DNA of 64,000 nt from Patescibacteria group bacterium (GTDB lineage: Bacteria > Patescibacteriota > Patescibacteriia > Magasanikbacterales > GWA2-37-8), in assembly GCA_041651015.1 (NCBI GenBank), contig JBAZKA010000004.1:1010-65009 (forward strand), written 5' to 3'. The notes beneath the pieces were generated by a model that worked only from the letters and a program-made list of their open reading frames with translations, was not told the DNA's origin and made no database searches. Shown here piece by piece: positions 1 through 53,065 of this stretch (its first letter is position 1; each line of letters opens with the position of its first letter). The translations under genes and the position numbers were made by a program.

Positions 1-2000
1 AAGCTCCATTTCCTATTGCAGTTGCGTAATTATGGCTCACCAGTGCAGCATATCCAACTGCAGTACCACCAGTGACGGTTCCGCTTATGTCGGACTCCGA
101 ACCAAGCATTGTATTGTAACTGCCCCCGCTTCCCTGCGCGCCGGCATTATAACCAATGGCAGTATTATTTGAATCTCCATCAAAATATCTCAAGGTATAA
201 ACTCCAATGCCAACATTATTACTACCGGTGACACTCGAGCCTAAAGCGATATAACCCACGCCAACATTATTATTTCCGGTTGTATTATAACGGACGGCAT
301 CGTTACCAACACCAACATTATAATCGCCGGTTGTATTGTCGTGCAACGCCTGATAACCTTGCGCTACGTTGCCAAATCCCGCCGTATTATCGTACAACGC
401 CTCATACCCTACGGCCGTGTTGGAGGATACAGTGTTGTTATAAAGGGATCCGTAGCCAATAGCCGTATTGGCTAAAGATGTGGTACTGATCCGTAACGCA
501 TTGACACCTAAGGCTGTATTATAAGAACCGGTAATATTTTGATATAAGGCAGTCAGGCCGATTGCCGTATTATTTCCGCCTGTCGTGTTGTTATATAATG
601 CATCATAAGCAAGAGCGGTATTATATGCACCCGTGGTATTATTATAAAGAGCCTGATAACCGATTGCCGAATTATACATGCCCGAGGTGTTATTAAATAA
701 CGCTTGATATCCCATAGCAGAATCATACATCCCCGTACCAATTGCTGTAGTACTACCCATCGCCTGATAGCCAAAAGCGGAGTTTCTATAACCAGTAGTA
801 TTTGAATACATCGCCTGATAACCTTGGGCTGTATTCATCACGCCCGTCGTATTACTATATAACGCCTCATAACCAACCGCGGTGTTGGAGGACGCGGTGT
901 TATAGCGAAGAGAATTATAACCTAAGGCGATATTGGCGTTTGAAGAAGTGGCATCATACAAAGAATAATAACCCAAAGCAACATTGCCGTTGCCGATCTG
1001 GTTGCCTTTCAACGCGCCACGACCAATACCGGTGTTGTATGAACCGAGGGTATTATCAAGCATTGCTCCGCGACCCATGGCGGTATTGTTACTACCACTG
1101 CTATTTACATACAAAGCGCCATAACCCACTGCGGTATTGTCATCACTGGAAGTGGCGGTAGCGAGAGCACCAACACCCACGGCAGTATTAAAGCTACCGG
1201 TTTGGTTTAAACTAATGGCGCCGGCGCCCAGGGCTGTGTTGTAATTACCGGTGGTATTGGCATAGAGGGCATTAATGCCATACGCTGAATTGTAACCGCC
1301 GGTTTGGTTTGCATAAAGGGATAGGTAGCCCATGGCAATGTTTCCCACACCCGTCGTATTACTATACAACGCTTGATAGCCTACCGCGGTATTGGAGGCG
1401 ACAATGTTGTTATAAAGCGCCTGGTATCCGATACCGACATTGGCATCACTGGTAGTGTTGGAATACAGAGAATAAGAACCAATGCCAACATTATAATTAC
1501 CCGTAATGTTATCATAGAGGGCGCTATCACCACTAGCGACATTGTAACTGCCGGTTGTATTATTTCTAAGGGGGGCACGACCAATGGCAACATTGCGATC
1601 GCCTGTGGTGTTATAGCGGAGAGAATGCCAACCGCTGGCAATGTTAAAATCGCCGGTGGTATTATCATGCAAAGCATAATAACCATTGGCGACATTATAA
1701 TTACTTGTATTGTTTGCTGTGGTACTGCCCATGGCCATATAACCATTGGCGATGTTGCCAGCACCGGTGGTATTGCTATATAAAGCCTGATAACCAGAGG
1801 CAACGTTGGCATATCCGGTGGTGTTGTTGTATAAAGCCAAAGAACCATTGGCGATGTTGCCATATCCGGTGGAGTTACTATATAGCGCCTGATAACCGGA
1901 GGCGGTGTTACTTGCACCGGTCATGGTCAAATTGCCGGCATTGCCAAAATAATAATTGTTTAAACTGGTGGACGCATAAGCCAAATTCACGCCGTTGTAT
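1..2000 (-). repeat. Degenerate 51-nt (17-codon) tandem coding repeats inside the giant gene
   Basis: Visible periodicity, e.g. 241-400 and 1380-1920. Encodes NTA(V/I)GYQALYSNTTGxY-type units. Confidence 0.6.
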
Positions 2001-5000
2001 TTGTAATAATTATCAGCGGTGACACTGATGCTGCCATCAACAACTAATTTTTCATTTGGTGTGGTGGTGCCGATGCCGACGTTGCCGGACACGGCAACAG
2101 CAAGGTAATCCGTACCACCAAAGCCACCACTATCAATTTTAAAAGCGTAATTATCATCGGCGTCTATACCGGTTGCGAATGATTGGCTCGCCGGCCTGTT
2201 GTAATAAAGAATCTCAGCATGACCACTCGCATTATCTTGCCGTAGATATACCATTGGCGCTCCATTGCTCGCATCGTTCTCATACACCCCGAAGTCGGTT
2301 TCCGTGGCGCCAGATGCTGAAGAAGTGCCAACATGGATACCATTCAAAAACGCGGATTTGCCTGATGACATAATTCTTGTCGGCGGAGAGTTGGGGTCAG
2401 AGGCGCTTGTACCAAGAGCGATGAAGCCAATATAATTTCCACTATTATTTAAATTGCCGATAAACGCGGTTTGCGTAGCACCGGCAAACAAAGAAATGCC
2501 GTTTATAGATGAAACCGAGGCTGAAACGTCAATCGCCAATCTGACTGAGGGAGTAGAAGTGCCAATCCCCAGCCGATTATTTGTATCATCCCAAAAGAAA
2601 TTGGAATTGTCTTGCGTTAATTTTCCACTGGATGATGCAAAGACCACTGAGCCGACGGTCAGGCCGCCCGTATCGGTTGCTAAAATTCCCAGCGACGAAG
2701 TGGATACCCAATTCGGCGCAGATGCGCCGTTTGATTGCAAAACGTATCCTAATGTACCGGCATTGCCATTAGTTCGTAATGCGCCGGACAAATTCATGTC
2801 GCCGGAAATTGATAACGGATATGATGGCGTGGTGGTATTGATACCAACATTGCCACCGAGAAGAGCGATGGTATTATTTTGAGAGATAGTTTTTGATGTG
2901 GAAGAAACATTTACACCAAAAGAATTATTACCATTGACGGTCAAATTTTGCCCGAACGCGGCGCTGTTGCTGCCGCCGGCAACAGTTAAATTACCAAATG
3001 CAACGCTATAAGTCCCGCTCGCGTATGTGCCATAACCAAAAGCCGCACTGGCTTCGCCGCTGGCTGTCACACCATTTCCAAAAACCGCGCCATATTGTCC
3101 ACTCACGATATTCCCCCAACCACCGCCGGCAAAACCGGCGGAAACATTAACAGTATTATAACCGCCGCCGGCGACAAAAGAGTAAAAGCCACTAGCTTTG
3201 TTTGCCCAACCAGCGGCAAAAGCATCGGTGCCGCTGTAAACTTCATTATTATAACCAAAAGCGGCCCCGCGGGTGCTGGACACAATATTCCCCTCGCCAA
3301 AAGCAACACCGTTCGTACCAGGAACGTTATTTTCATAGCCAAAAGCGCTGGAATAGTTTCCATTGACAGTATTATTTTCACCAAATATAACTGTGGCTCG
3401 ACCCGCGAGATTATTGCCGGCACCACCGACCACACTGGCAAAGGCGGTACTGGACACATTATTATTGGAACCAAAAACCGCGGAATAATCAGCGCCATAA
3501 CTTGTGGATGCGGCAACATCATTACCAGTACCAGAAACTAATGCACCGGTGGAATATACATTGTTAAGGACGCCAAAAACCGTATCGCCCCACCCGGACT
3601 CTGTATTCCCTTCGCCGGCGACAAAAGAATATGTGCCAAACACAAAGTTGTCGGCACCAAACGCCGCTGAATACTCGCCGATATTTGCATCATCCCAGTC
3701 GTCTCCGGTGACAGTCCCTGCTCTAAACGCCGATTTCTCGGGATACCACATCATCCTTGTGCCCGCGCCCTCAACTTGAAGCGCGTTGCCGTCGTCGAAT
3801 GTACCAGCGGCGACGATTGCGCCGGTTCCACCGACATAAAGTTGCGCTAAAGGATTTGTGCTATCAATACCAATTTCACCGTCGTCATCCATAAATAAAA
3901 TTCCCGTACCGGTGCTGTTAAAAATCCCAAAAGAATCATCACTGTTGATATTTAAATCAACGTAATTATTTGTATCATAGCCCATCCTCATAGCCTTGCC
4001 TGATTCATACAACGAAGTCGGGGTCATGATCGGCGAAGTCAACCAGTTATCACCGTTGTTGTCAGTATAAGCATTTGTGGCGACATCTTTGTAAACATTA
4101 TAACTAAAAGGGTTGGAGGTATCATATTTTAATACACGATAACCGGTCGCCCCGTCCACCGCATCCCATGTCCACTCAAGCCTGTAGAGGTTTGACGAAC
4201 CGTTGTCGGTCCAATTACTGGAAAGATTATCGTATGACGATGAGTAAACTCTGCCTGCTGTCGTGTCCTTGAAGGCATAAACGCGCAAGTTGTGCGAATA
4301 ACTATTCGCCGTATAATACTGCTTTGAGGCATACACCGCACTGACTTGCACATTTGATGGAGTACCGACAGTAATCAACGCACCAGCCCCGGTTACTACC
4401 TGAATTTTACCGGCCGGCGTGGTGGTGCCCACGCCGATTGAACCACCATTAAAAATTCCATTGCCGCTGATTCTAAATCCGGCCACTTGATCAGCGCTTG
4501 TTTGATTTTGAATATAATTATTTGAACCCGATGAAGAAGCAAAACCGAGTGACGAAGTGGATACCCATGCCGGCGCAGATGTTCCGTTTGACTGTAAAAT
4601 ATGTCCGGCTGTGCCGGCGTTGCCGTTGATCCGTAATGCGCCAGACAAATTCATGTCGCCGGATACGGTCAAAGGAAAACTGGGAGTGGTCGTGCCCACG
4701 CCAACATTGCCCCCAAGAAGAGCAATCGTGTTTGGTTGCGAAATTATTTGCGCAGTGGAAGATACATTGACGCCAAACGAACCTTCTCCGCTCACAGTTA
4801 AATATTGCCCGAAAGCCGTCGTATAATTACCAGATACTTCGTTGTATATACCGCCGCCCACAAATGAATAATAACCAGTTGAGGTGTTGTACATGCCACC
4901 TCCAATAAAACTGGAGATACCATCATTATAATTAGACTCGCCACCTCCGATAAAACCACTGATACCACTATTAGTATTGTTTTCACCGCCGCCGATAAAA

Positions 5001-7498
5001 GCATTGGTATTTTGTACCTGATTATATGAACCGCCAACTACGGCGGCATACCGGGCGCTTGATGTATTGTATCGGCCTCCACCGATAAAAGACGCGTCAT
5101 TTGTTGTTACATTGCGGAAACCACCGCCGATAAAACCATAATCATGACTGGAGGTGTTGTACATTCCGCCACCGACAAATGAATACAAACCCGAAGCGGT
5201 GTTATACACACCACCGATTACCGCAGAGAATTGAGCGGAGGCATTCGCATACGCACCTATAGCTACAGTGCCTGTCGCCGAGGCAGTACTACCGCCGACC
5301 ATCGCCACTGAATATGATCCGACATTCGCGTCATCCCATTCGTTCCCCATGGCGATTCCGGCTCTAAACGCCGCCTTACGTGGATACCAAATCATACGGG
5401 TGCCGGCACCGGATGATGACAAGGTCGCACCCGAACCAAAAGTTCCATGCGCGATAATACCGCCGTCGCCACCGATGGTAAGCTTGAATTCCGAAGTTGT
5501 TGTTCCGATAGTCGTGGTGCTCATCGTACCGATGCCTCCAATTCTAAATCCGGCCACTTGATCAGCGCTTGTTTGATTTTGAATATAATTATTTGAACCC
5601 GATGAAGAAGCAAAACCGAGTGACGAAGTGGATACCCATGCCGGCGCAGATGTTCCGTTTGACTGTAAAATATGTCCGGCTGTGCCGGCGTTGCCGTTGA
5701 TCCGTAATGCGCCAGACAAATTCATGTCGCCGGAAATTGATAACGGATATGATGGCGTGGTGGTATTGATGCCGACATTTCCGCCGAGAAAAGCAATGAC
5801 ATTATTTTGCGATAAAACCGCGGCAGTGGAAGAAGCATTTACACCGAAAGAATAGGCGCCTGAAACGGTAAGATTACGGCCAAAAGCAGTAGAAACCCAT
5901 CCGCTGGAGGTATTTGACCAACCGAAAACAGTCGAATACGTATCCCCTGCTACATTATGATTACCAAAAGCCGTAGCACCAATGCCACTGGCTATATTTT
6001 CCTGGCCAAAAACGGTAGCGCCTTGCTGACTTGCAATATTGTAACCACCAAAAGCAGATGAATAGAGACCGCTGGCAATATTTCGTGTTCCCAAGGCCGT
6101 AGCGTATTGACCGCTTGATGTATTGTAGTTACCAATAGCAGTAGCGCCTCGGGCATTGGCGATATTATCGCCGCCTAAGGCAGTCGCATAATAGCTGCTA
6201 GCAGTATTACCGTAGCCCATTGATATTGTATAGTCGCTACTAGCAATATTACCACTTCCGACCGCGAACGATCCTTCTCCGGATGCAGTATTATTTGCGC
6301 CCATGGCGATTGATCCCAAGCCGCTAGCCATGGTATTTAGGCCACTCGCAAAAGACCATCCACCAATATTCGCGTCATCCCATTGGTCAGCCCCCGATCC
6401 CATATCATAGGTGGTGCCAGCTCTGAAGGCACCTTTCCGTGGATACCAAATCATGCGCGTGCCCGTACCAGTGGTAGCAAGCACTTGGCCCTGCGGATCG
6501 AGCACCGGAGTACCCACACCACGCGCGATAATACCGCCGTCGCCACCGATGGTAAGCTTGAATTCCGAAGTCGTTGTTCCGATAGTCGTGGTACTCATCG
6601 TACCGATGCCTCCAATTCTAAAATTCGCGGCTTGATCTACTGAATTTTGATTTTGGATAAAATTGCCGGAAGTGGAAGTGACATACCCGGCATCGTTATT
6701 TAGCAGAGAAACGTTTTCTCCCTCAATCATCACATTGCTCGCGAGCGAAGTTGAAGCAATAGTCGTAGTCGCCATCCACGTGCCGCCGTTCAAATATGCA
6801 AATCCGGTCCAACCTGATGAATCAGCGCCCGTGCCGCCGCGCAAAGTGGAAATGAGCGAACCGTTCCAAGTACCGGAAGCGACATTGCCAAAATAAGAAT
6901 TGCCAAAGACGCTAAGAAACCCGGAAACAGTAGCGCCCGTGGAAGTGACATTATTGAAATTAAAATTTCCCGACGCATCAGAGACCGGAATATAAGTCGT
7001 GCTGGTGTTTGTGTTCGGTGCGACTCCCTCCAAATATTTTGAATTAAACGCGTATGGCGTAGCCGTCATTTTTTTTCTCGGTGTTAGCGTCTCGGCGCCG
7101 ATTCTCACTTCCAAATATACATCAGAATAATTTTTAAAAATATTTGCATCCAAAGCATTGGTGCCGGATTCGCCAAAATTAATTGTAAATAATCCTTGAA
7201 TCGGAGTGATACCAACATAGCTCGGGACGCCAACTGTACCGCTCGCTGAATAAAGAGCTGTACCGCCGGTTAAGGAATCATACAAAATAAAATACATCTG
7301 TTGGGTGGTGCTGGCCGACGAACCATTTACCAATAATTTTCCTTGATACGAAATCGTGGATGGTGCGCTGGCTGACTTGGCTTGAAAAGCCGGCGACAAC
7401 AAAATTAAAATAGCGACAAAAATAGTCGCCGATATACTTAAAAAATTCGGGAATTTGCTCCGATTTACTGAATTTTCTTTCGCCGACTCTGTGTTCAT
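1..7498 (-). CDS. Giant secreted/anchored repeat protein (tail-fibre / YadA-head-like beta-roll repeats); start codon inside window at 7498-7496, 3' end runs off the window (>=2499 aa)
   Basis: My translation of the minus strand from ATG at 7498 gives MNTESAKENSVNRSKFPNFLSISATIFVAILILLSPAFQAKSAS... with a hydrophobic N-terminal anchor. It is followed by 14-aa repeats (S/A)xA(F/L)GxxN(I/T)ASGxx typical of Hep_Hag/YadA-head-like beta-rolls. Region 1-2000 carries 17-aa (51-nt) repeats NxAxGxxALxxNTTGxx. The same frame was checked at 1798. Every listed minus-strand ORF in 1-7000 lies in a different frame, consistent with one uninterrupted ORF that is not listed because it is incomplete. Confidence 0.6.
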   Translation of the reverse strand, partial: MNTESAKENSVNRSKFPNFLSISATIFVAILILLSPAFQAKSASAPSTISYQGKLLVNGSSASTTQQMYFILYDSLTGGTALYSASGTVGVPSYVGITPIQGLFTINFGESGTNALDANIFKNYSDVYLEVRIGAETLTPRKKMTATPYAFNSKYLEGVAPNTNTSTTYIPVSDASGNFNFNNVTSTGATVSGFLSVFGNSYFGNVASGTWNGSLISTLRGGTGADSSGWTGFAYLNGGTWMATTTIASTSLASNVMIEGENVSLLNNDAGYVTSTSGNFIQNQNSVDQAANFRIGGIGTMSTTTIGTTTSEFKLTIGGDGGIIARGVGTPVLDPQGQVLATTGTGTRMIWYPRKGAFRAGTTYDMGSGADQWDDANIGGWSFASGLNTMASGLGSIAMGANNTASGEGSFAVGSGNIASSDYTISMGYGNTASSYYATALGGDNIANARGATAIGNYNTSSGQYATALGTRNIASGLYSSAFGGYNIASQQGATVFGQENIASGIGATAFGNHNVAGDTYSTVFGWSNTSSGWVSTAFGRNLTVSGAYSFGVNASSTAAVLSQNNVIAFLGGNVGINTTTPSYPLSISGDMNLSGALRINGNAGTAGHILQSNGTSAPAWVSTSSLGFASSSGSNNYIQNQTSADQVAGFRIGGIGTMSTTTIGTTTSEFKLTIGGDGGIIAHGTFGSGATLSSSGAGTRMIWYPRKAAFRAGIAMGNEWDDANVGSYSVAMVGGSTASATGTVAIGAYANASAQFSAVIGGVYNTASGLYSFVGGGMYNTSSHDYGFIGGGFRNVTTNDASFIGGGRYNTSSARYAAVVGGSYNQVQNTNAFIGGGENNTNSGISGFIGGGESNYNDGISSFIGGGMYNTSTGYYSFVGGGIYNEVSGNYTTAFGQYLTVSGEGSFGVNVSSTAQIISQPNTIALLGGNVGVGTTTPSFPLTVSGDMNLSGALRINGNAGTAGHILQSNGTSAPAWVSTSSLGFASSSGSNNYIQNQTSADQVAGFRISGNGIFNGGSIGVGTTTPAGKIQVVTGAGALITVGTPSNVQVSAVYASKQYYTANSYSHNLRVYAFKDTTAGRVYSSSYDNLSSNWTDNGSSNLYRLEWTWDAVDGATGYRVLKYDTSNPFSYNVYKDVATNAYTDNNGDNWLTSPIMTPTSLYESGKAMRMGYDTNNYVDLNINSDDSFGIFNSTGTGILFMDDDGEIGIDSTNPLAQLYVGGTGAIVAAGTFDDGNALQVEGAGTRMMWYPEKSAFRAGTVTGDDWDDANIGEYSAAFGADNFVFGTYSFVAGEGNTESGWGDTVFGVLNNVYSTGALVSGTGNDVAASTSYGADYSAVFGSNNNVSSTAFASVVGGAGNNLAGRATVIFGENNTVNGNYSSAFGYENNVPGTNGVAFGEGNIVSSTRGAAFGYNNEVYSGTDAFAAGWANKASGFYSFVAGGGYNTVNVSAGFAGGGWGNIVSGQYGAVFGNGVTASGEASAAFGYGTYASGTYSVAFGNLTVAGGSNSAAFGQNLTVNGNNSFGVNVSSTSKTISQNNTIALLGGNVGINTTTPSYPLSISGDMNLSGALRTNGNAGTLGYVLQSNGASAPNWVSTSSLGILATDTGGLTVGSVVFASSSGKLTQDNSNFFWDDTNNRLGIGTSTPSVRLAIDVSASVSSINGISLFAGATQTAFIGNLNNSGNYIGFIALGTSASDPNSPPTRIMSSGKSAFLNGIHVGTSSASGATETDFGVYENDASNGAPMVYLRQDNASGHAEILYYNRPASQSFATGIDADDNYAFKIDSGGFGGTDYLAVAVSGNVGIGTTTPNEKLVVDGSISVTADNYYKYNGVNLAYASTSLNNYYFGNAGNLTMTGASNTASGYQALYSNSTGYGNIANGSLALYNNTTGYANVASGYQALYSNTTGAGNIANGYMAMGSTTANNTSNYNVANGYYALHDNTTGDFNIASGWHSLRYNTTGDRNVAIGRAPLRNNTTGSYNVASGDSALYDNITGNYNVGIGSYSLYSNTTSDANVGIGYQALYNNIVASNTAVGYQALYSNTTGVGNIAMGYLSLYANQTGGYNSAYGINALYANTTGNYNTALGAGAISLNQTGSFNTAVGVGALATATSSDDNTAVGYGALYVNSSGSNNTAMGRGAMLDNTLGSYNTGIGRGALKGNQIGNGNVALGYYSLYDATSSNANIALGYNSLRYNTASSNTAVGYEALYSNTTGVMNTAQGYQAMYSNTTGYRNSAFGYQAMGSTTAIGTGMYDSAMGYQALFNNTSGMYNSAIGYQALYNNTTGAYNTALAYDALYNNTTGGNNTAIGLTALYQNITGSYNTALGVNALRISTTSLANTAIGYGSLYNNTVSSNTAVGYEALYDNTAGFGNVAQGYQALHDNTTGDYNVGVGNDAVRYNTTGNNNVGVGYIALGSSVTGSNNVGIGVYTLRYFDGDSNNTAIGYNAGAQGSGGSYNTMLGSESDISGTVTGGTAVGYAALVSHNYATAIGNGA
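4480..6640 (-). repeat. Two near-identical ~1071-bp tandem modules inside the giant gene (partial third copy near 2690-2880)
   Basis: Identical stretches at 4480-4680 vs 5550-5740 and ~5450 vs ~6530. Antisense ORFs 4557.. and 5628.. share 33 identical N-terminal residues. Module boundary encodes ...GGNVGI(N/G)TTTPS(Y/F)PL(S/T)(I/V)SGDMNLSGALRINGNAGTAGHILQSNGTSAPAWVSTSSLGF... Confidence 0.65.
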
Positions 7499-7583
7499 AA
7501 GTCGGTTAATTTCAAGACATCTATATTATAGCATTTTTTACGCCTCAAAAGAATGTTTTTTTGCGAAGTTATCCACAGAAATA

Positions 7584-7691
7584 GTTCATAAAGTTATAAA
7601 GTTTTTAAAGTTTGTAAAGTAAAAAATCTCCCGTTTCCACGGAAGACTTTTGTCTGCTTTATAACTTTATGAACTTTATAACTTTATGAAC
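7584..7691. repeat. AT-rich inverted repeat built from AACTTTATAA/TTATAAAGTT units, between the giant-gene start and the trxA stop
   Basis: Left arm gttcataaagttataaagtttttaaagtttgtaaagt (7584-7620). Right arm ctttataactttatgaactttataactttatgaac (7667-7691) is its reverse complement. Right arm overlaps the trxA stop codon. Confidence 0.55.
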
Positions 7692-8010
7692 TAAGACATC
7701 GGTCAATCATCTCCATTAATTTTTCCTTCTGCAATCCCCCGTTTAATGTATCAACCGGCGCGCCATTCTTAAAAACAATAAATGTCGGCACGCTCATCAC
7801 TTCCCACTTGCCCGCCACCTCCATATTTTCATCCACGTTTAATTTTCCAATTTTAATATTCTTGCCTTCATAATCCTTGGCCAGCTCATCCACAATCGGA
7901 CCCATCATCTGACACGGCCCGCACCACGGCGCCCAAAAATCCACCAAGACCGGCACGTCGGATTTCAAAACTTCGGCTTCAAAATTAGAATCAGTAAAAA
8001 CTTTTTCCAT
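7684..8010 (-). CDS. trxA: Thioredoxin
   Basis: 108 aa, WCGPC active-site motif, typical thioredoxin length and sequence. Confidence 0.9.
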   Translation of the reverse strand: MEKVFTDSNFEAEVLKSDVPVLVDFWAPWCGPCQMMGPIVDELAKDYEGKNIKIGKLNVDENMEVAGKWEVMSVPTFIVFKNGAPVDTLNGGLQKEKLMEMIDRCLSS

Positions 8011-13518: not shown

Positions 13519-13558
13519 ACTTTATAAACTTTATAACTTTACAAACTTTATAAACTCG
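13519..13558. repeat. AACTTTAYAA repeat array upstream of hup
   Basis: tactttataaactttataactttacaaactttataaactcg. About 90% identical to 53023-53065 and related to 7584-7691. Confidence 0.55.
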
Positions 13559-13577: not shown

Positions 13578-13856
13578 ATGAATAAAGCAGAATTAGCTCA
13601 AGTTCTCTCTGAGAAATTGAACATCTCCAAAAAAGAAGCCGAAGACATGGTCAATACCACCGTTGATGTGATTATTGAAACTTTGACCAAAGGCGATGAA
13701 GTTGTTTTGACCGGTTTTGGCGCTTTCAGCGTCAAACAGCGCGCGGCTCGCGTTGGCGTCAATCCGCAAAATCCGACCGAGAAAATTCAAATCCCGGCGG
13801 TAAAAGTTCCGAAATTCAAGGCTGGCAAAGCATTGAAAGATGCACTCAAGAAGTAA
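13578..13856 (+). CDS. hup: DNA-binding protein HU
   Basis: 92 aa. MNKAELAQVLSEKLNISKKEAEDMV...GFGAFSVKQRAARVGVNPQNPTEKIQIPA is canonical HU. Confidence 0.9.
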   Translation: MNKAELAQVLSEKLNISKKEAEDMVNTTVDVIIETLTKGDEVVLTGFGAFSVKQRAARVGVNPQNPTEKIQIPAVKVPKFKAGKALKDALKK

Positions 13857-13872
13857 TTTTTTTCTAAAAAAT

Positions 13873-13903
13873 CCTTCCGCCATGGGCGGAGGGATTTTTG
13901 TTT
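13873..13903 (+). terminator. Intrinsic terminator after hup
   Basis: ccttccgcc-atgg-gcggaggg followed by atttttgtttt. Confidence 0.6.
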
Positions 13904-13977
13904 TCATGGTTTGCCCGGCAGAGCTCCGCGAGATTCTGCTGGGCACGCCCGGCAGAGGCCGAAGGCATTCTGCCGGG

Positions 13978-14006
13978 TTGACAAAACCTCATTTTTATGA
14001 TTTACT
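13978..14006 (+). promoter_or_regulatory. Putative promoter TTGACA-17-TTTACT for the 14041 gene, preceded by two tandem GC hairpins (13913-13977)
   Basis: TTGACA at 13978-13983 and TTTACT at 14001-14006. The hairpins share the arm cccggcaga. Confidence 0.4.
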
Positions 14007-14040
14007 TAAAGTCGTCAACCAAAACGAGGAGGAGAATAAA

Positions 14041-14394
14041 ATGGGAGAGGTAGTTCGCTTGAAAACACGTTATCTCATCTGGCCAGAAAACGCCGATACA
14101 ATGGAAAAAATCGCCGTTCATCTTATCGAAAGAGGACGGCCAATCACGGAGGACAGAATCACTTCCTACCGCGATTGGAAAGGAAACGAGCTCACCCTGA
14201 TTGAGATAGAAAAGCCGGATGCTTATTATTTCAAGGATATGAAGAGCGGTTGCTGGCTTAAATTCCGTCTATTCAAGCAGGACCCTGGAAGAACTATTCG
14301 GGAGATAACATTCTCATTTCCGAAAAAGTCGCCGCGGCGCGCGCGTCTCGGAATCAAACAGGTCGCCGCCAAGGGCACGACCGATCACGCATAG
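14041..14394 (+). CDS. Hypothetical protein (117 aa)
   Basis: GAGGAGGA RBS 6 nt upstream of ATG 14041. Terminator hairpin with GCAA tetraloop plus T-run at ~14428-14452. Local GC is higher than surroundings. Confidence 0.5.
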   Translation: MGEVVRLKTRYLIWPENADTMEKIAVHLIERGRPITEDRITSYRDWKGNELTLIEIEKPDAYYFKDMKSGCWLKFRLFKQDPGRTIREITFSFPKKSPRRARLGIKQVAAKGTTDHA

Positions 14395-14550
14395 CAGCAC
14401 CTTTCGCAACACACCACAACGGCGGTCGCAAGATCGTCGTTTTTTTATTTCCAATATTGACAAAAACGTGAAATAATGGTTAGGTTAATCGGGGGGAACG
14501 AACATTTAACAATTCAAAGCCAAGGGCTTTGCCGCACAGGAGGAAAAATC

Positions 14551-15057
14551 ATGGAAAGAATCGGCAGACTGCCACAAGTTGCCAGTTTACTGGGTATAAC
14601 AATCCCCGAAGAACTCTTGAAAGAAATAGAAAACGGGTTAACGCTCGCGGACATCATAGAGAACCCACGTCGGCCTTTACCGGACATGCTGGATATTGAT
14701 GACGTGATTTTACTCTGGGTATACCTGGAAAACCGCAGAGATGAGCTGAATAAGTACGTGCAACAATTTCTCGGCTCCATTCCCCCGGACAAACGTCCAC
14801 CCGAAAATGATTTTGAAGCGTGGAAACAATTCCGCGCCGACGCCTATGATGATTCGTTCGAGCAAAAAATCGCCATGATGCAACTGATACGAATCGCAAA
14901 GACATTTGGAAATTGGCTGTACATTATCAACTTTGCCAAGCACGAATGTGTAAAAATAATCTCGGCCATTGCTCTGCGAGACAAGGCTCAAGGAGAAATC
15001 CAGGAACAAATGGCTGGGCGAAAACTGGAAGAAGTCGGTATTGGTTCATTGCCATAG
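14551..15057 (+). CDS. Hypothetical protein (168 aa)
   Basis: AGGAGG RBS upstream of ATG 14551 (MERIGRLPQV...). No recognisable family. Confidence 0.5.
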   Translation: MERIGRLPQVASLLGITIPEELLKEIENGLTLADIIENPRRPLPDMLDIDDVILLWVYLENRRDELNKYVQQFLGSIPPDKRPPENDFEAWKQFRADAYDDSFEQKIAMMQLIRIAKTFGNWLYIINFAKHECVKIISAIALRDKAQGEIQEQMAGRKLEEVGIGSLP

Positions 15058-33889: not shown

Positions 33890-36800
33890 CTATGATTGGG
33901 TCGCGAGCAATGTCACATCCACATCCTGCTCACCATAACAAGTGGAAGCTGAGGGAGCGGTGAGACGTAATTGAAATTGGGTGGTACCATCCGCGGCCAC
34001 ATTGGTATCAATATTTTGGTAGGTGGTAGTCATGGCCGTATAGTTGGTCGGCGGGGACGAACAATCTAAATCCGTGTCATTACAAAACCGATGTACGTAT
34101 TGGTCTGCGCCGTTTGAAGTCGCGAGCGTCCACGTGCATCCCCCGCCCGAACCATCTTGCCCTTTGATGGCAAAATCTTCGGTCACATTACCGTTATTGG
34201 TGATTGTTTGCAAATCGCCAAGGTCAATCGTGCTCACACTGGAATTTTCCGCAATGGTTCCATAGCTCACAACTCCGTCGGAAACAGTGACAGACACAAC
34301 CGGCGTAACGGAATTTACTTCATCGTAATCTTTATCAATCGTAGTTGTGATAGCGTTAAGCGAGGTGGTGCAATAACCCCATTGCCAAAAAGTAAAGGTG
34401 GTTGAGGCACCAGCCGGCAAATCATCCCAACGCCGAACGAAATATATATCATCAGCTTCATTTGTTGATTTAACCGCCACTTGAAGCGGCCATTCAATGG
34501 TGGAACTGACCGGGGAGTGTTGAAAATAATAACCGTAAGTCGCCGGATCATCCTGGTCAAAAATCACACCCATGGCCGCCCAGATACCGGTATCGTAAGT
34601 TGTAAACCATTTTTTGGTTAACGATGACATGGTGATTTGACGTTCTACCGTGCTGCTCGTCGTTTCACCGGCCACCCAACCCTTATCATTAGTATTACGA
34701 TCAGTACCAAGCCATTGCTCGCGACCCCAAACTAACGGATAATCATAAGCTGTGGAACTGGCATTGGTAAAAGTGTAAACATTTTTTAAATAACGTTTAC
34801 TGGCATAAAATGTTTGGTATCGGTATGCGTCAATGCCGGTAGCCAGTTGTTGCGCCCAACCATTGGCTGCGCCATCCGAATGCACCAAAGTGGTGATGGA
34901 ATTATCGTCCTCGCTGACAATGTAATTCGCCCATTCATCTTGTTTCCATTTAATATCGCCGGCATAATATCCGGAACTATCTATCCTTACTGTATCATTC
35001 ACAACGACAGCCGTGCGTTCCATACAATCCAAGTTCACGTCATTGTCACTGCTATTGCGGCAAGACATCTCCACCTGTTCGCCCGCGCCTTCATAGCCGC
35101 CGCCAAACATTGGTGTGTTGATAAACTGATTGGCAAATACTAAGCCATTATAAAATAAACGCTCACCGATATTATATGTATATAAACGATCATAACGCGT
35201 GGCAAACAAATCAGTGTCCGAAGTAAAAGAAAAAGCCACTGTTTTATAAGTCGTACCCATGGAATTATCTTGGATATATAACGTATGATGGCCGCTATCC
35301 CACCACCAACAATCCGTAGTGGAAGCAGCGGTCCCTTCTGAAAGAGCCGTGCCGGCCAAGGACACCGATGTGATATTAATATCACTCGTCGTCGGATGGA
35401 ACGGAAAAGCAATCGCGACATTGGAATAGGTAGCCGCGGCATTGACGGAAAAATCCGCCACTTCGTAATTCCAATGGTCAACGCTCCAAGTGGGATTAAA
35501 CTCGGCGCCATTGCCCATGGCCGCGGTGCTGATGGCATTCCATCGCCGTGTAATATATGTGGTAAAATTTGCCGTGGTCGTTGAATAATCAATTGATGAA
35601 AAATTTGAACTGCTGGATAATTGCAAAGTGGTTCGAAACGTGCCGGTATTTGGATCGGCACAGCCATTGCAAAAATTTGAACCCGGGTAAATTACCCCTT
35701 CATAACGTCCGTCAATGGCATCCCATGTCAAATTTGTGTAAAGATTATCCCCCACGGAATTGGTGGTACTGGCTCGCGCATAAGGATAATCAAGATAACT
35801 CAAGCCATTCAAAGTCATATTGACGGGAATGGCGCCGCTCCAACCATCAGAAGTCTTGCCAATGGAACCGGAAATAGTGGGAAGAGCAAACACGGTGGAA
35901 CCGGAAATTGCGACTGTGCTGGAAGGTCCGGTGGTACCACTGCTCACCGTCACGCCGGTACTGGGATCGGAAATTTGGATTTCCAATGTTTCTCCCAAAG
36001 TAGCACCCGAAGCAACATCCAACACTGTATAAACACACATCGCCGAAGTGGTGCTGATACCGACCGAACCGGAAAATGTTGAAGTGCCATTGGCGGCGCT
36101 AAACCCATCGGTATCAGTGGAGCCAAATTGAGTTTCCGTACCGCCATAACTTTCCGAAGCGCAATCATACGGTGTGGTAGCGTCTAAATCGTAATAAAGT
36201 TTAATGTTATCCAAATCAGTTTGCGCATCCACGGTGCCATTTTCAAAAATACTAATACCGGTGACATTGCGCGAGCCGGCGTTTTCAATAATGGAAAAAT
36301 ATCCGCCGACATAATTATCAGTGGAAGGAATGGTCATGCCCGTGGCTTGACTGCCTCCGGTACCGACAGTGACAGAACTGACCAGAGCGGTGGAACCGGT
36401 AATGGCCACTGCGGACGACGGCCCGACCGCGCCGCTGCTGATCGTCACGGCCGTGCTGGGATTGGTAATTTGAATTTCAATTGTTTGCCCTTCGCCCGCG
36501 CCCGAGCCCACATCCACAACCGCATAAACGCACATGGCTTGGGCCGAGGTCACGGCCACGGTTCCGGAAAATGTTGATGTCCCGTTGCTAGCGCTAAAAC
36601 CATCAGTATCAGTGGAGCCATATTGAGTCTCGGTGCCATTATAACTAACAGATGCGCAATCATAAGGCGTCACTGTATCTAATTCATAATATAATTTGAT
36701 ATTATCTAAATTATTTTGCGCGTCCACGGTGCCGATTTCATTTATGGATATACCGGTGACATTGCGAGAAGTGGCATCGCCGACAATGTAGAAAGCGCCG

Positions 36801-38668
36801 CCGACATAATTATTGGTTGATGAAACGACCATGGTCGCGGTTTGATTGCCAGTGGTTCCAACCGTCACGTTGTTTGAAGAAGCATTATAAGTCGCGTAAA
36901 TGGAATATTTCAAAGCGCCTAGTGTCGGCGAGGTAAACGAGGACGGCCAGGTGCCGTATGTTTGCGTCTTTGACAGACTCTGATTTGTGGCGCCAGTAGT
37001 ATAATAAAAATAATTTTGGCTGTCATTATCATTTTTTAACAACCAATAGGTGGAACTGCTGATAGTCGGCGAGGTTGATAATTTATAGGCATACCAAGCT
37101 TTTGTGGTGCCGACAGCGGTAGACGCCGAATTCGCCACCAAATTATAGCTGGAATTATAGATACCATAACCCGCATAGTAGCCGGAATCCGGATACATAT
37201 AGGCGGTGGTTGTGACGACTGTAGCGCCGGCCGCGCCCGAGCCGGAATCAAATTTTGAACCGACCATTCTTCCATTTATTGACGAAGTATAACTCGTCCC
37301 GGCCGTGGTGTTGCCAAAGGTCGGGTCAACGATTACCGGATAAACCGCCTCATCCAAAAAATATTGCGGCACGGTGATGGTCATTTTTCCGCTAACCTCG
37401 TCAATATTTAATTCGCACCAAGTATATCGTCCGCTCGCGTCAAATGCCTGCGGACGATAAATTGAAAACGCCATGCCGGTGCCATAATTTTTGCCACCCA
37501 TGGCTGAGTAATCTCCTTGCAAACCGCCCTTATAATAAACCGCGTAAGACCCAACCACGTTTATCGGACGATGATATTCATGGCATTCGGTCGGACTGCA
37601 ACTTGGGTCGCTCATTTCCACATTCAAAGGCGGCTGATAGAAAAACTCTAAATTTTCCGTAGCAATATCAAATTCAAAAACATTAGTGCTCGGTTTTGTC
37701 TTTAAAGCAAATTCAAATTCATAACCATCAACATTTTCACTCATCCCGTCGGAATATTTTTCATTCGGGATAGTGACAGTTTTATCATAAAAAATATATT
37801 GACGATGCGATGTTTCATATTTGATAACTTTCTCTTCGCCCAATTCATCTCTGTCAATAAACAATGCTTTCTCGGTGGACACACTTGAATCAGACAATGG
37901 TTCGTTCAGGATAGTGGAAAAATTTGCGAAAATTGCTTCTTCACCCTGAGAGTATTGAGTAATAGATACGACATCTTCACTCGGAGTATTAGTCGGGGTA
38001 TCAACGACAGTTGTGTCGGTTAAAACAGTTTCTTCGCTCAAAACCGTATCCGCCGTAGTAGTAGTGATACCGGAGTCACCAGTGACTGTGTCATCACCGG
38101 TTTCCGGCGTCAAAATAATACCTGAGGATGTCGCGACCTCCGCCTCCACCTTTACACCCAACACTTCGGCCGGCGCTTTTGTCTCTACCAAGGTATTGCC
38201 TGATATTTCCCCCTCAAACTTCGGAATTATTTTCATACTCGCTTCCCCATCCCAGCGTTCAATGGTTATTGCCGGAGAAAACGAATCGCCTTCGGGCGCG
38301 CCGATCTTGTAGGCCACACCGTCAATTTCTTTGGCCGGCAAAACAAAGGCTGATCCTTCCTGGCGATATTTGTCACGCAATGGCGAGGCGGCTAATTTAC
38401 GAGACAAAGAGATTGAATCCATAGCGCTTTCATCCGGAGCAAACAAACTGGCTGTCACAATTCCGACCAAGGAATTATCCTGATACCAAGGTATGTTTGA
38501 TGCAGCCGAACGCGTATCGCTCCACACCGGCCAGCCGTATACAAAAACAGCGATGAATACGCCCAAACAGGCGAAAATAATCGCTTTTTCAAAAAATAAT
38601 TTATTTTTTAGATACGTCAAAAAATTTCGCCGCATAAAAGAACTAAATCCATTTTTATTTTTTCTCAA
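33890..38668 (-). CDS. Giant membrane-anchored surface protein (1592 aa) with internal tandem ~160-aa repeats and a C-terminal WxL-like/TasA-like module
   Basis: N-terminal TM (AIIFACLGVFIAVFVYGW). Ser/Thr/Gly-rich beta-rich sequence. C-terminal ...VSVTVSDGVVSYGTIAENS...TITNNGNV...CTWTLATSNG...YVHRFCNDTDLDC...NYTAM. Start overlaps the stop of the upstream gene (translational coupling). Confidence 0.6.
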   Translation of the reverse strand: MRKNKNGFSSFMRRNFLTYLKNKLFFEKAIIFACLGVFIAVFVYGWPVWSDTRSAASNIPWYQDNSLVGIVTASLFAPDESAMDSISLSRKLAASPLRDKYRQEGSAFVLPAKEIDGVAYKIGAPEGDSFSPAITIERWDGEASMKIIPKFEGEISGNTLVETKAPAEVLGVKVEAEVATSSGIILTPETGDDTVTGDSGITTTTADTVLSEETVLTDTTVVDTPTNTPSEDVVSITQYSQGEEAIFANFSTILNEPLSDSSVSTEKALFIDRDELGEEKVIKYETSHRQYIFYDKTVTIPNEKYSDGMSENVDGYEFEFALKTKPSTNVFEFDIATENLEFFYQPPLNVEMSDPSCSPTECHEYHRPINVVGSYAVYYKGGLQGDYSAMGGKNYGTGMAFSIYRPQAFDASGRYTWCELNIDEVSGKMTITVPQYFLDEAVYPVIVDPTFGNTTAGTSYTSSINGRMVGSKFDSGSGAAGATVVTTTAYMYPDSGYYAGYGIYNSSYNLVANSASTAVGTTKAWYAYKLSTSPTISSSTYWLLKNDNDSQNYFYYTTGATNQSLSKTQTYGTWPSSFTSPTLGALKYSIYATYNASSNNVTVGTTGNQTATMVVSSTNNYVGGAFYIVGDATSRNVTGISINEIGTVDAQNNLDNIKLYYELDTVTPYDCASVSYNGTETQYGSTDTDGFSASNGTSTFSGTVAVTSAQAMCVYAVVDVGSGAGEGQTIEIQITNPSTAVTISSGAVGPSSAVAITGSTALVSSVTVGTGGSQATGMTIPSTDNYVGGYFSIIENAGSRNVTGISIFENGTVDAQTDLDNIKLYYDLDATTPYDCASESYGGTETQFGSTDTDGFSAANGTSTFSGSVGISTTSAMCVYTVLDVASGATLGETLEIQISDPSTGVTVSSGTTGPSSTVAISGSTVFALPTISGSIGKTSDGWSGAIPVNMTLNGLSYLDYPYARASTTNSVGDNLYTNLTWDAIDGRYEGVIYPGSNFCNGCADPNTGTFRTTLQLSSSSNFSSIDYSTTTANFTTYITRRWNAISTAAMGNGAEFNPTWSVDHWNYEVADFSVNAAATYSNVAIAFPFHPTTSDINITSVSLAGTALSEGTAASTTDCWWWDSGHHTLYIQDNSMGTTYKTVAFSFTSDTDLFATRYDRLYTYNIGERLFYNGLVFANQFINTPMFGGGYEGAGEQVEMSCRNSSDNDVNLDCMERTAVVVNDTVRIDSSGYYAGDIKWKQDEWANYIVSEDDNSITTLVHSDGAANGWAQQLATGIDAYRYQTFYASKRYLKNVYTFTNASSTAYDYPLVWGREQWLGTDRNTNDKGWVAGETTSSTVERQITMSSLTKKWFTTYDTGIWAAMGVIFDQDDPATYGYYFQHSPVSSTIEWPLQVAVKSTNEADDIYFVRRWDDLPAGASTTFTFWQWGYCTTSLNAITTTIDKDYDEVNSVTPVVSVTVSDGVVSYGTIAENSSVSTIDLGDLQTITNNGNVTEDFAIKGQDGSGGGCTWTLATSNGADQYVHRFCNDTDLDCSSPPTNYTAMTTTYQNIDTNVAADGTTQFQLRLTAPSASTCYGEQDVDVTLLATQS
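35880..36860 (-). repeat. Two tandem ~480-490-bp coding repeats inside the giant surface gene
   Basis: Protein copies share ...NYVGG(A/Y)F(Y/S)I(V/I)...SRNVTGISI.ENGTVDAQ..LDNIKLYY.LD..TPYDCAS.SY.GTETQ.GSTDTDGFSA.NGTSTFSG... DNA at 35931-36045 vs 36421-36540 and at 36181-36330 vs 36665-36810 is clearly related. Confidence 0.6.
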
Positions 38669-53022: not shown

Positions 53023-53065
53023 GAACTTTACAAACTTTATAACTTTACAAACTTTATAACTTGAT
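53023..53065. repeat. AACTTTAYAA repeat array abutting the start codon of the 53067 gene
   Basis: gaactttacaaactttataactttacaaactttataacttg. Paralogous to 13519-13558. Confidence 0.55.

What the first reader, a model, noticed from the sequence alone, without database searches (positions are those of the whole stretch)
1..7498. Giant (>2499 aa, truncated by window) secreted protein made of YadA-head-like 14-aa and 17-aa beta-roll repeats with recombinogenic ~1.07-kb near-identical tandem modules
The minus strand from ATG 7498 is open for the whole 7.5 kb. All annotated ORFs in the region lie in other frames and are antisense or off-frame artefacts of the repeats. The sequence has an N-terminal anchor and then (S/A)xAxGxxNxASGxx 14-mers and NxAxGxxALxxNTTGxx 17-mers typical of trimeric beta-helical fibres such as phage tail fibres and trimeric autotransporter heads. 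Segments of 150-200 bp are repeated almost identically at 1071-bp spacing (4480/5550/6620, partial at ~2700). Unequal recombination between them would give length or antigenic variation of a surface fibre. The gene may be an adhesin, or a prophage or tail-like structure component.
Basis: seen in the sequence. Interest (0 to 1): 0.7.

Follow-up and report, generated by a model that had tools for sequence, protein, structure and literature searches.

The report
Giant modular surface fibre gene of a Patescibacterium
This is a real, very long gene for a secreted fibre protein of an ultra-small (Magasanikbacteria, candidate phyla radiation) bacterium, built from adhesin-head-like and phage-tail-fibre-like repeat blocks; it belongs to a large, catalogued but unstudied family and is probably used to stick to other cells or surfaces.

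Summary
The minus strand from ATG 7498 is open for all 2499 codons to the window edge. It contains 14-, 15- and 17-residue repeats. It also has in-frame 1071/1074-nt module spacing, with a 194-nt exact repeat at 4470/5541. Whole modules are not near-identical (about 57% nt). Only the 0.15-0.3 kb junctions are, and they carry a sharp gene-conversion signature.

The protein has a signal peptide, a lineage-specific N-terminal Ig-like domain and three YadA/UspA1-like head modules joined by conserved connectors. It also has two unassigned domains and at least 34 copies of a 17-residue shaft repeat shared with phage tail fibres.

The context is housekeeping genes, in an order conserved in two Magasanikbacteria genomes, so this is not a prophage. 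The complete syntenic orthologue (3310 aa) has no autotransporter anchor. It ends with a Peptidase_S74 auto-chaperone domain plus a tail of about 480 aa.

Best reading: a Sec-exported fibre, probably trimeric, folded in the phage manner and used as an adhesin. Module order and number differ between orthologues. It is a new member of a known but uncharacterised kind and is of moderate interest.

The parts
1..7498 (-). Giant ORF, 2499 codons, 3' end cut by the window edge
   Evidence: No stop codon. Homologues have E=0 to 1e-100. The syntenic orthologue P0002 is 3310 aa.
7525..7533 (-). Extended -10 promoter-like TGCTATAAT, 27 nt upstream of the ATG (consensus match only)
   Evidence: Read from the sequence. 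The scanner found no full -35/-10 pair on this strand.
7367..7498 (-). Signal peptide, aa 1-44: basic n-region, the only hydrophobic segment (aa ~15-43), then AKSAS
   Evidence: Kyte-Doolittle scan finds one hydrophobic segment only. All 26 family N-termini share the pattern, with an AxA-like site before PPSIITYQGKLL.
6689..7363 (-). Lineage-specific N-terminal region, aa 46-270; its core (aa 48-147, nt 7058-7357) is an Ig-like beta-sandwich
5606..6679 (-). Head module M1, aa 274-631: N-cap, 14-residue YadA-like repeats, C-cap and connector
   Evidence: Pfam YadA_head best stretch is aa 391-416. PDB matches BpaC, Hep_Hag and 9gh4 cover aa 374-568. Period 14.
4469..5605 (-). Head module M2, aa 632-1010: N-cap, 15-residue GGG-type repeats like the UspA1 head, C-cap and connector
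   Evidence: PDB 3pr7 (UspA1), E 7.7e-19, aa 758-910. Period 15. Offset from M1 is 357/358 aa.
3974..4468 (-). Unassigned domain, aa 1011-1175, with an FN3-like 'WTWDAVDGATGYRV' motif seen by eye
   Evidence: No Pfam hit at E<=1. Only 3 of 120 homologues share it.
2624..3973 (-). Head module M3, aa 1176-1625: longer 14-residue repeat core
   Evidence: Self-similarity to M1 and M2. Period 14. Weak LbR_Ice_bind beta-roll match, below the cutoff.
2114..2623 (-). Unassigned domain, aa 1626-1795
   Evidence: No Pfam hit. Shared by 5 of 120 homologues.
1..2113 (-). Cap plus array of at least 34 copies of the 17-residue repeat NxAxGxxALxxNTTGxx, aa 1796-2499, running off the window
   Evidence: Period 17; 34 motif hits in register. 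PHROG virion-structural and tail-spike families, E 2e-108 to 2e-74. tblastn gives 36-45% identity to tail fibre proteins of pelagiphages, roseophages, cyanophages and SPO1-like phages. The AF2 solenoid model (pLDDT 72) matches predicted viral fibre proteins.
4470..4663 (-). 194-nt exact repeat, copy in the M2 connector (aa 946-1010)
5541..5734 (-). 194-nt exact repeat, copy in the M1 connector (aa 589-653); 1071 nt (357 codons) from its partner
5449..5497 (-). 49-nt exact repeat (M2 N-cap); its partner is at 6523-6571 (M1 N-cap), spacing 1074
   Evidence: extended to 146 nt at 88%
2787..2842 (-). 56-nt exact repeat (M3 connector); its partner is at 5715-5770 (M1 connector), spacing 2928

Best explanation
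The gene encodes a chromosomal, Sec-exported, modular cell-surface fibre of a Magasanikbacteria (Patescibacteria/CPR) bacterium.

Shown:
- A signal peptide is followed by an Ig-like N-terminal domain specific to this lineage's giant proteins.
- Three YadA/UspA1-type beta-roll head modules follow, separated by conserved connectors.
- Two unassigned domains and a long shaft of 17-residue repeats of the type found in phage tail fibres follow.
- The head cores are old, diverged duplicates. The connectors have been homogenised recently by gene conversion.
- Orthologues and paralogues carry the same module types in different numbers and orders.

Inferred from the complete syntenic orthologue:
- The missing C-terminus carries a Peptidase_S74 intramolecular-chaperone domain and a tail of about 480 aa. 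The chain would then fold as a homotrimer from the C-terminus, in the manner of phage fibres, and may cleave itself at the conserved Ser.
- There is no outer-membrane beta-barrel anchor, so it is not an autotransporter.

Inferred from analogy:
- The fibre serves in adhesion to a partner or host cell, or to a surface.
- Homologous recombination between the identical in-frame connector tracts can delete, duplicate or swap whole head modules, changing fibre length and binding surfaces.
For: - Open frame of 2499 codons.
- Homologues at E=0 are giant Magasanikbacteria proteins.
- The rny-truB-infB-trx-giant gene order is conserved in L001 and L004, with IF-2 80% and RNase Y 90% identical.
- YadA_head Pfam match and matches to solved TAA heads.
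- 17-mers match phage tail fibre and tail spike families, phage genome records and predicted viral structures.
- The N-terminal domain family is nearly always N-terminal and preceded by a signal peptide.
- There is a single hydrophobic segment, no LPxTG motif and no Cys in 2499 aa.
- Orthologue P0002 has Peptidase_S74 at 27.9 bits when scanned alone (cutoff 22), starting at SSRAIK, and no YadA_anchor.
- The same S74 plus ~480-aa cassette occurs in P0010, P0011 and P0019.
- Conversion tract: 64 of 65 identical codons against a 34% background.
- Module maps differ between orthologues.
- Exact repeats also occur within and between the paralogous genes in L001.
Against: - The C-terminus of this copy is outside the window, so the S74 domain and the tail are inferred, not seen.
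- Trimer formation was not modelled. The monomer model of the 17-mer region has only moderate confidence (pLDDT 72) and no significant match among solved structures.
- No means of attachment to the cell is evident: no LPxTG, no second transmembrane segment, and the signal peptide is probably cleaved. The protein could therefore be released.
- No expression, localisation or population data are available.
- The identical tracts might have been homogenised by read-based polishing of a metagenome assembly.
Confidence: 0.72

Rival explanations
1. It is a phage or prophage tail fibre, or part of a tailocin-like particle, that happens to lie in the chromosome.
For: The 17-residue shaft repeats match PHROG tail-spike and virion families and annotated phage tail fibres. 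Many homologues are named 'tail fiber domain-containing protein' and carry Peptidase_S74.
Against: The visible flank holds thioredoxin, IF-2, TruB, RNase Y and MetK, and that order is conserved in two other genomes. In those genomes the downstream genes are an Lcl_C-domain protein and a second giant paralogue, not phage genes. The protein has a Sec signal peptide, which virion proteins normally lack. GC content is even across the boundary.
Confidence: 0.04
2. It is a monomeric beta-solenoid coat or matrix protein (S-layer-like, ice- or mineral-binding, or biofilm matrix), not a trimeric adhesin fibre.
For: AF2 models the 17-mer region as a single-chain solenoid. There is a weak match to an ice-binding beta-roll. 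No cell anchor is evident.
Against: YadA-type heads in solved structures are obligate trimers (established knowledge of TAAs; sequence matches). The orthologue and about 40% of homologues carry the S74 trimer-folding chaperone. The ice-binding match is below the Pfam cutoff.
Confidence: 0.12
3. It is a delivery fibre for a C-terminal cargo: the ~480-aa tail after the S74 cleavage site is released as an effector or enzyme, and the fibre is mainly its carrier.
For: In orthologues the S74 domain is internal, followed by a conserved tail of ~480 aa. The central third of the tail also occurs in stand-alone ~420-500-aa proteins and at the C-termini of S8 peptidases.
Against: The tail has no Pfam or PDB sequence match and no recognisable catalytic motif. 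It is not visible in this window. A few relatives carry the Peptidase_G2 auto-chaperone domain, which would make the tail a second folding aid rather than a cargo.
Confidence: 0.07
4. It is an assembly artefact or pseudogene: the repeats were mis-joined or homogenised, and the true locus differs.
For: Half of the related genes in public MAGs are cut by contig ends, so this gene type does break assemblies. One syntenic orthologue is split by a frameshift in a GGGG run.
Against: A 7.5-kb frame with no stop is not expected of a chimera or a decayed gene. All repeat spacings are in frame. The architecture is collinear with module types seen in independent genomes.
Confidence: 0.05

Closest known systems
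Trimeric autotransporter adhesins (type Vc secretion): YadA, UspA1, BpaC, CbpF heads
   Same: 14-15-residue left-handed beta-roll head repeats. There are direct sequence matches to the solved heads (3pr7 at E 7.7e-19; also 7o23, 9u93, 3s6l) and to Pfam PF05658. The beads-on-a-string modular layout is also shared.
   Different: No YadA_anchor barrel in the visible 2499 aa or in the complete syntenic orthologue. The composition argues against a coiled-coil stalk (E 1.5%, K 1.1%). The host is a Patescibacterium, a group generally held to lack an outer membrane (general knowledge). Polarity is probably reversed, with the folding nucleus at the C-terminus.
Phage tail fibres and spikes with a C-terminal intramolecular chaperone (Peptidase_S74: K1F endosialidase, T5 L-shaped fibre; pelagiphage HTVC111P and cyanophage P-SSM2 fibres)
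   Same: The 17-residue NxAxGxxALxxNTTGxx shaft repeats are 36-45% identical to annotated phage tail fibres and match PHROG tail-spike families. The orthologue carries S74 with the Ser...Lys motif.
   Different: It is encoded among housekeeping genes, has a Sec signal peptide and is 3-10 times longer. It contains TAA-like heads. In orthologues S74 is followed by a further ~480 aa.
P0002 (NTW66_00575, 3310 aa) and P0001 of Candidatus Magasanikbacteria MAG GCA_026396515.1, and the wider 'tail fiber domain-containing protein' family in MAGs
   Same: Same locus (rny-truB-infB-trx-giant), same N-terminal domain (63-67% identical) and same module types and connectors.
   Different: Module number and order differ. 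P0002 starts with a 17-mer array and has about 6 heads. This copy has 3 heads and then one long 17-mer array.
Giant surface proteins of the CPR predator Vampirococcus lugosii (PMC8080830) and adhesins needed for epibiotic growth of Saccharibacteria (PMC10633639)
   Same: Very large secreted or membrane proteins in reduced CPR genomes, proposed or shown to mediate host attachment.
   Different: Those carry WD40, PKD, DUF11, integrin and fibronectin domains, not YadA-like heads or phage shaft repeats. No homology was tested.

Membership tests
Trimeric autotransporter adhesin (type Vc) | YadA-like head repeats (PF05658 / left-handed beta-roll) | tested here: met
   PF05658: 31.3 bits against a cutoff of 25, 4 stretches. 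Solved TAA heads match at E 7.7e-19 to 2e-6.
Trimeric autotransporter adhesin (type Vc) | C-terminal 12-stranded beta-barrel membrane anchor (YadA_anchor, PF03895) | tested here: not met
   No hit in the visible 2499 aa or in the complete syntenic orthologue P0002. The C-terminus of this copy lies outside the window, so absence here is by orthology.
Trimeric autotransporter adhesin (type Vc) | Coiled-coil stalk segments | not tested
   No coiled-coil predictor was run. The composition (59% G/S/A/N/T, low E/K/L) and the two AF2 segments show no long helices apart from the signal peptide.
Trimeric autotransporter adhesin (type Vc) | Host with an outer membrane and BAM machinery | not testable with these tools
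   Placement in Magasanikbacteria/Patescibacteria comes from synteny and 80-90% identical housekeeping proteins. Lack of an outer membrane in this group is general knowledge, not tested.
Phage tail fibre/spike with intramolecular chaperone | Shaft repeats homologous to phage fibre proteins | tested here: met
   phrog_23837 E 2.3e-108 and phrog_4636 (tail spike) E 1.9e-74. 90 phage records match by tblastn. BFVD fold matches, E 1e-11.
Phage tail fibre/spike with intramolecular chaperone | C-terminal Peptidase_S74 domain with the catalytic Ser/Lys | tested here: inconclusive
   Not visible here because the gene is cut by the window. It is present in the syntenic orthologue: 27.9 bits against a cutoff of 22, with the profile starting at SSRAIK. 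It is also present in P0010, P0011 and P0019.
Phage tail fibre/spike with intramolecular chaperone | Encoded in a phage or prophage genome | tested here: not met
   Housekeeping neighbours and conserved synteny.
Magasanikbacteria/Patescibacteria giant proteins with the PPSIITYQGKLL N-terminal domain | Signal peptide followed by the conserved N-terminal domain at the very N-terminus of a protein over 1000 aa | tested here: met
   Alignment A1 has invariant P46, Y51, Q52, G53, K54 and others. 27 of 120 homologues carry the domain. 113 genomic loci were found. 289 cluster representatives match at E<=1e-30, nearly all at residues 1-250.
Diversity-generating retroelement target (template/variable repeat pair) | Repeat pair differing mainly at adenines of one copy | tested here: not met
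   The core tract is 100% identical, and the mismatch spectrum in the flanks shows no A bias.

The most novel reading that the evidence does not exclude
Magasanikbacteria and related Patescibacteria may have a lineage-specific class of cell-surface fibres that borrow the assembly logic of phage tail fibres: a C-terminal S74 auto-chaperone, followed by a conserved and possibly released ~480-aa tail. Identical connector tracts would act as recombination handles to shuffle YadA-like head cassettes. Such fibres would be a fast-evolving determinant of which host or partner cells these episymbionts can attach to.
Probability: 0.15. Interest if true: 0.65.

Novelty: new member of a known kind. Interest (0 to 1): 0.36.

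Why it matters
How ultra-small Patescibacteria recognise and hold on to partner cells is largely unknown outside Saccharibacteria. This gene spans at least 7.5 kb. Its relatives come in adjacent pairs totalling more than 20 kb (L001), a notable share of the roughly 1-Mb genomes typical of this group (genome size from general knowledge, not measured here). That investment suggests an important surface function.

The family combines adhesin heads known from Gram-negative autotransporters with phage-fibre shafts and a phage-type folding domain, in an organism expected to lack an outer membrane. It is therefore a clear example of module exchange between phage and cellular adhesins.

There is also a practical point. 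Half of the related genes in public MAGs are truncated at contig ends, so this family is systematically under-represented and mis-annotated.

Tried and rejected
- Finding the source genome, to read past position 1. An exact 50-mer search of genome contigs and metagenome contigs gave no match, and the window's thioredoxin is not on record. The C-terminus therefore had to be inferred from the orthologue.
- DGR template/variable-repeat hypothesis for the identical tracts. Rejected, because the mismatch spectrum has no adenine bias.
- Prophage reading. Rejected on context and synteny.
- Fold of the 17-mer region against solved structures. No match at E<=0.001. The monomer model is probably not the native trimeric state.
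- Pfam scans of the two unassigned domains (aa 1011-1175 and 1626-1795) and of the orthologue's C-terminal tail. Nothing significant. PDB sequence searches of the tail and of the S74 region found nothing significant.
- NCBIfam. No family matched the window protein.
- Literature. Searches found no paper on this family in Patescibacteria, only general precedents.
- Other copies in the window. No paralogue of any module lies elsewhere in the 64 kb.

Full report
**1. The observation**

Translating window 7498->1 on the minus strand gives 2499 codons with no stop. An in-frame TAA lies ten codons upstream of ATG 7498, and no alternative start codon lies between them. All other ORFs of at least 80 aa in 1-7498 are 178 aa or shorter, and they are antisense or off-frame.

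Residue autocorrelation gives these repeat periods:
- 14 aa for aa 385-545;
- 15 aa for aa 735-905;
- 14 aa for aa 1290-1570;
- 17 aa for aa 1801-2499.

The longest exact nucleotide repeats are as follows:
- 194 nt at 4470/5541, spacing 1071;
- 49 nt at 5449/6523, spacing 1074;
- 56 nt at 2787/5715, spacing 2928.

All spacings are multiples of three.

One correction is needed. The 1.07-kb modules as wholes are only about 57% identical in DNA, and their repeat cores are about 40-50% identical in protein. Only 0.15-0.3 kb at each module junction is near-identical.

**2. Anatomy**

Self-comparison, family scans and solved-structure matches give this order:

| Residues | Feature |
|---|---|
| 1-44 | Signal peptide |
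| 46-270 | Conserved N-terminal region |
| 274-631 | Head module M1, 14-mers |
| 632-1010 | Head module M2, 15-mer GGG type; UspA1 head 3pr7, E 7.7e-19 |
| 1011-1175 | Unassigned domain |
| 1176-1625 | Head module M3, 14-mers |
| 1626-1795 | Unassigned domain |
| 1796-2499 | Cap plus at least 34 copies of a 17-residue repeat, running off the window |

Further properties:
- The only hydrophobic segment is aa ~15-43.
- There is no LPxTG motif and no cysteine.
- G, S, A, N and T make up 59% of residues.

In 26 family members the hydrophobic segment is followed by an AxA-like site. That site lies immediately before an invariant P-x-I-I-T-Y-Q-G-K-L motif. This fits a cleaved Sec signal peptide better than a permanent anchor.

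**3. Structure predictions**

- The 17-mer region models as a solenoid with one short strand per repeat (pLDDT 72, pTM 0.71).
- That solenoid has no significant match among solved structures.
- It does match predicted viral fibre proteins, several of which carry an intramolecular chaperone domain (E down to 1e-11, TM 0.5-0.68).
- A monomer model is probably not the native state.

**4. Context and organism**

Neighbouring genes include thioredoxin, IF-2, TruB, RNase Y, SAM synthetase, DnaE, PheT, ClpB and RecG, together with three tRNA genes. No phage gene is visible.

The closest homologues are giant proteins of Candidatus Magasanikbacteria. In MAG GCA_026396515.1 the 3310-aa protein P0002 sits in the same rny-truB-infB-trx-giant order. 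There IF-2 is 80% and RNase Y 90% identical to the window's proteins. A second genome (L004) shares the order.

The organism is therefore a Magasanikbacteria relative in the Patescibacteria group. The gene is a conserved chromosomal locus, not a prophage.

**5. The family**

- The N-terminal domain has no Pfam model.
- It heads 27 of the 120 best homologues.
- It was found in 113 loci of species-representative genomes. The informatively titled ones are nearly all Magasanikbacteria or Patescibacteria. About half carry an uninformative 'uncultured Gammaproteobacteria' placeholder title that I could not verify.
- In a library of 1.84 billion proteins, 289 cluster representatives match at E<=1e-30. 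Nearly all match at residues 1-250 of proteins up to about 3700 aa.
- Half of the ORFs that carry it in genome loci are cut by contig ends. These genes routinely break assemblies.
- Module maps show the same building blocks (head N-cap, repeats, C-cap/connector, 17-mer cap, 17-mer array) in different numbers and orders in this protein, P0002, P0001, P0010, P0011 and others.

**6. The missing C-terminus, inferred**

- P0002 has a Peptidase_S74 domain at aa 2723-2782. It scores 21.7 bits in the whole-protein scan and 27.9 bits when the region is scanned alone, against a cutoff of 22.
- The profile starts at SSRAIK. That places a Ser and a Lys five residues apart, as in the S74 consensus. This was read by eye and not confirmed against a solved structure.
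- The S74 region plus a conserved tail of about 480 aa recurs in P0010, P0011 and P0019.
- The tail has no Pfam or PDB sequence match.
- Its relatives are mostly Patescibacteria fragments. Its central third also occurs in ~420-500-aa proteins and at the C-termini of S8 peptidases. A few relatives carry the Peptidase_G2 auto-chaperone domain.
- P0002 has no YadA_anchor.

**7. Recombination**

M1 and M2 were aligned at an offset of 357 codons.
- Residues 589-653 and 946-1010 are identical, and 64 of the 65 use the identical codon.
- In the flanking aligned residues only 13 of 38 identical amino acids share a codon (34%). The chance of such a run is about 5e-31.
- Identity falls to random within 30 nt on one side and decays gradually on the other.

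This is the signature of a recent gene-conversion or recombination tract inside old duplicates. Purifying selection alone would not produce it.

The mismatch spectrum has no adenine bias, so a DGR is excluded. The genes in L001 also hold exact repeats of up to 74 nt, both within one gene and between the two paralogues.

Crossing-over between the 194-nt tracts would remove or add exactly 357 codons. Variation on population timescales is plausible but not shown. Repeat homogenisation by read-based polishing cannot be excluded.

**8. Mechanism**

Shown: a secreted, modular, repeat-built protein. It carries TAA-type heads and phage-type shaft repeats. It is chromosomal, lineage-conserved and evolves by module reshuffling.

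Inferred:
- homotrimeric folding nucleated by a C-terminal S74 chaperone, with possible self-cleavage;
- a role in adhesion to partner cells or surfaces. Giant surface proteins and adhesins have been linked to host attachment in other CPR bacteria (PMC8080830; PMC10633639).

Unknown: how, or whether, the mature protein stays attached to the cell.

**9. Comparison and verdict**

- It works like a trimeric adhesin fibre but is not a trimeric autotransporter. No anchor barrel is present in the visible part or in the complete orthologue.
- It shares shaft repeats, and by orthology the folding domain, with phage tail fibres, but it is not phage-encoded.
- It is a new member of a populous family. 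Annotation pipelines already name that family 'tail fiber domain-containing protein', yet no paper describing it in Patescibacteria was found.
- Interest is moderate.

Noticed in passing
window 7582-7693; also 13527-13546 and 53033-53052: The intergenic region between thioredoxin and the giant gene holds a 31-nt inverted repeat (94% complementary, arms 50 nt apart) around the trx terminator hairpin. It also holds a 17-nt tandem duplication, CTTTATAACTTTATGAA, repeated twice. The 20-mer GTTCATAAAGTTATAAAGTT recurs with at most 2 mismatches at two other sites (13527 and 53033), which I did not map against gene boundaries. There are 6 matches in all against 0.02 expected. It looks like a small dispersed REP-like element.
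   Followed up: partly
window 33890-38668 (-): A second large ORF (1592 aa) has an N-terminal hydrophobic segment, no Pfam match and an internal duplication of about 150 aa ('...SRNVTGISI.E.GTVDAQ..LDNIKLYY.LD...'). It is unrelated to the giant fibre gene.
   Followed up: partly
L004 9944-18270 (MFD04716.bin.1.125): The syntenic orthologue is split into 260-aa and 2542-aa ORFs by a frameshift at a GGGG run inside the N-terminal domain. This may be a long-read homopolymer error, or a real frameshift or phase switch.
   Followed up: partly
L001 20203-21891 and L004 18557-20134: In both syntenic genomes the giant gene is followed by a gene of 525-562 aa. The L001 copy has an Lcl C-terminal domain (PF07603, E 7e-16); the L004 copy was not scanned. 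In L001 a second giant paralogue (more than 4094 aa) follows; L004 has a further N-terminal-domain match at its locus end. The same arrangement may lie just beyond window position 1.
   Followed up: partly
P0002 aa 2830-3310; P0010, P0011 and P0019 C-termini: A conserved tail of about 480 aa follows the S74 domain and ends in a Pro-rich PPAETP-type repeat. It has no Pfam or PDB sequence match. Its central third is shared with many ~420-500-aa proteins and with S8 peptidase C-termini, and a few relatives carry the Peptidase_G2 auto-chaperone domain.
   Followed up: partly
window 13840-14394 (+) and 14476-15057 (+): Two adjacent ORFs of 184 and 193 aa lie between RNase Y and tRNA-Glu and have no Pfam match.
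   Followed up: no
locus list: Many loci that encode the Magasanikbacteria-type N-terminal domain come from TPA assemblies titled 'uncultured Gammaproteobacteria bacterium'. This looks like a placeholder or a mislabel rather than true taxonomy. It was not verified.
   Followed up: no
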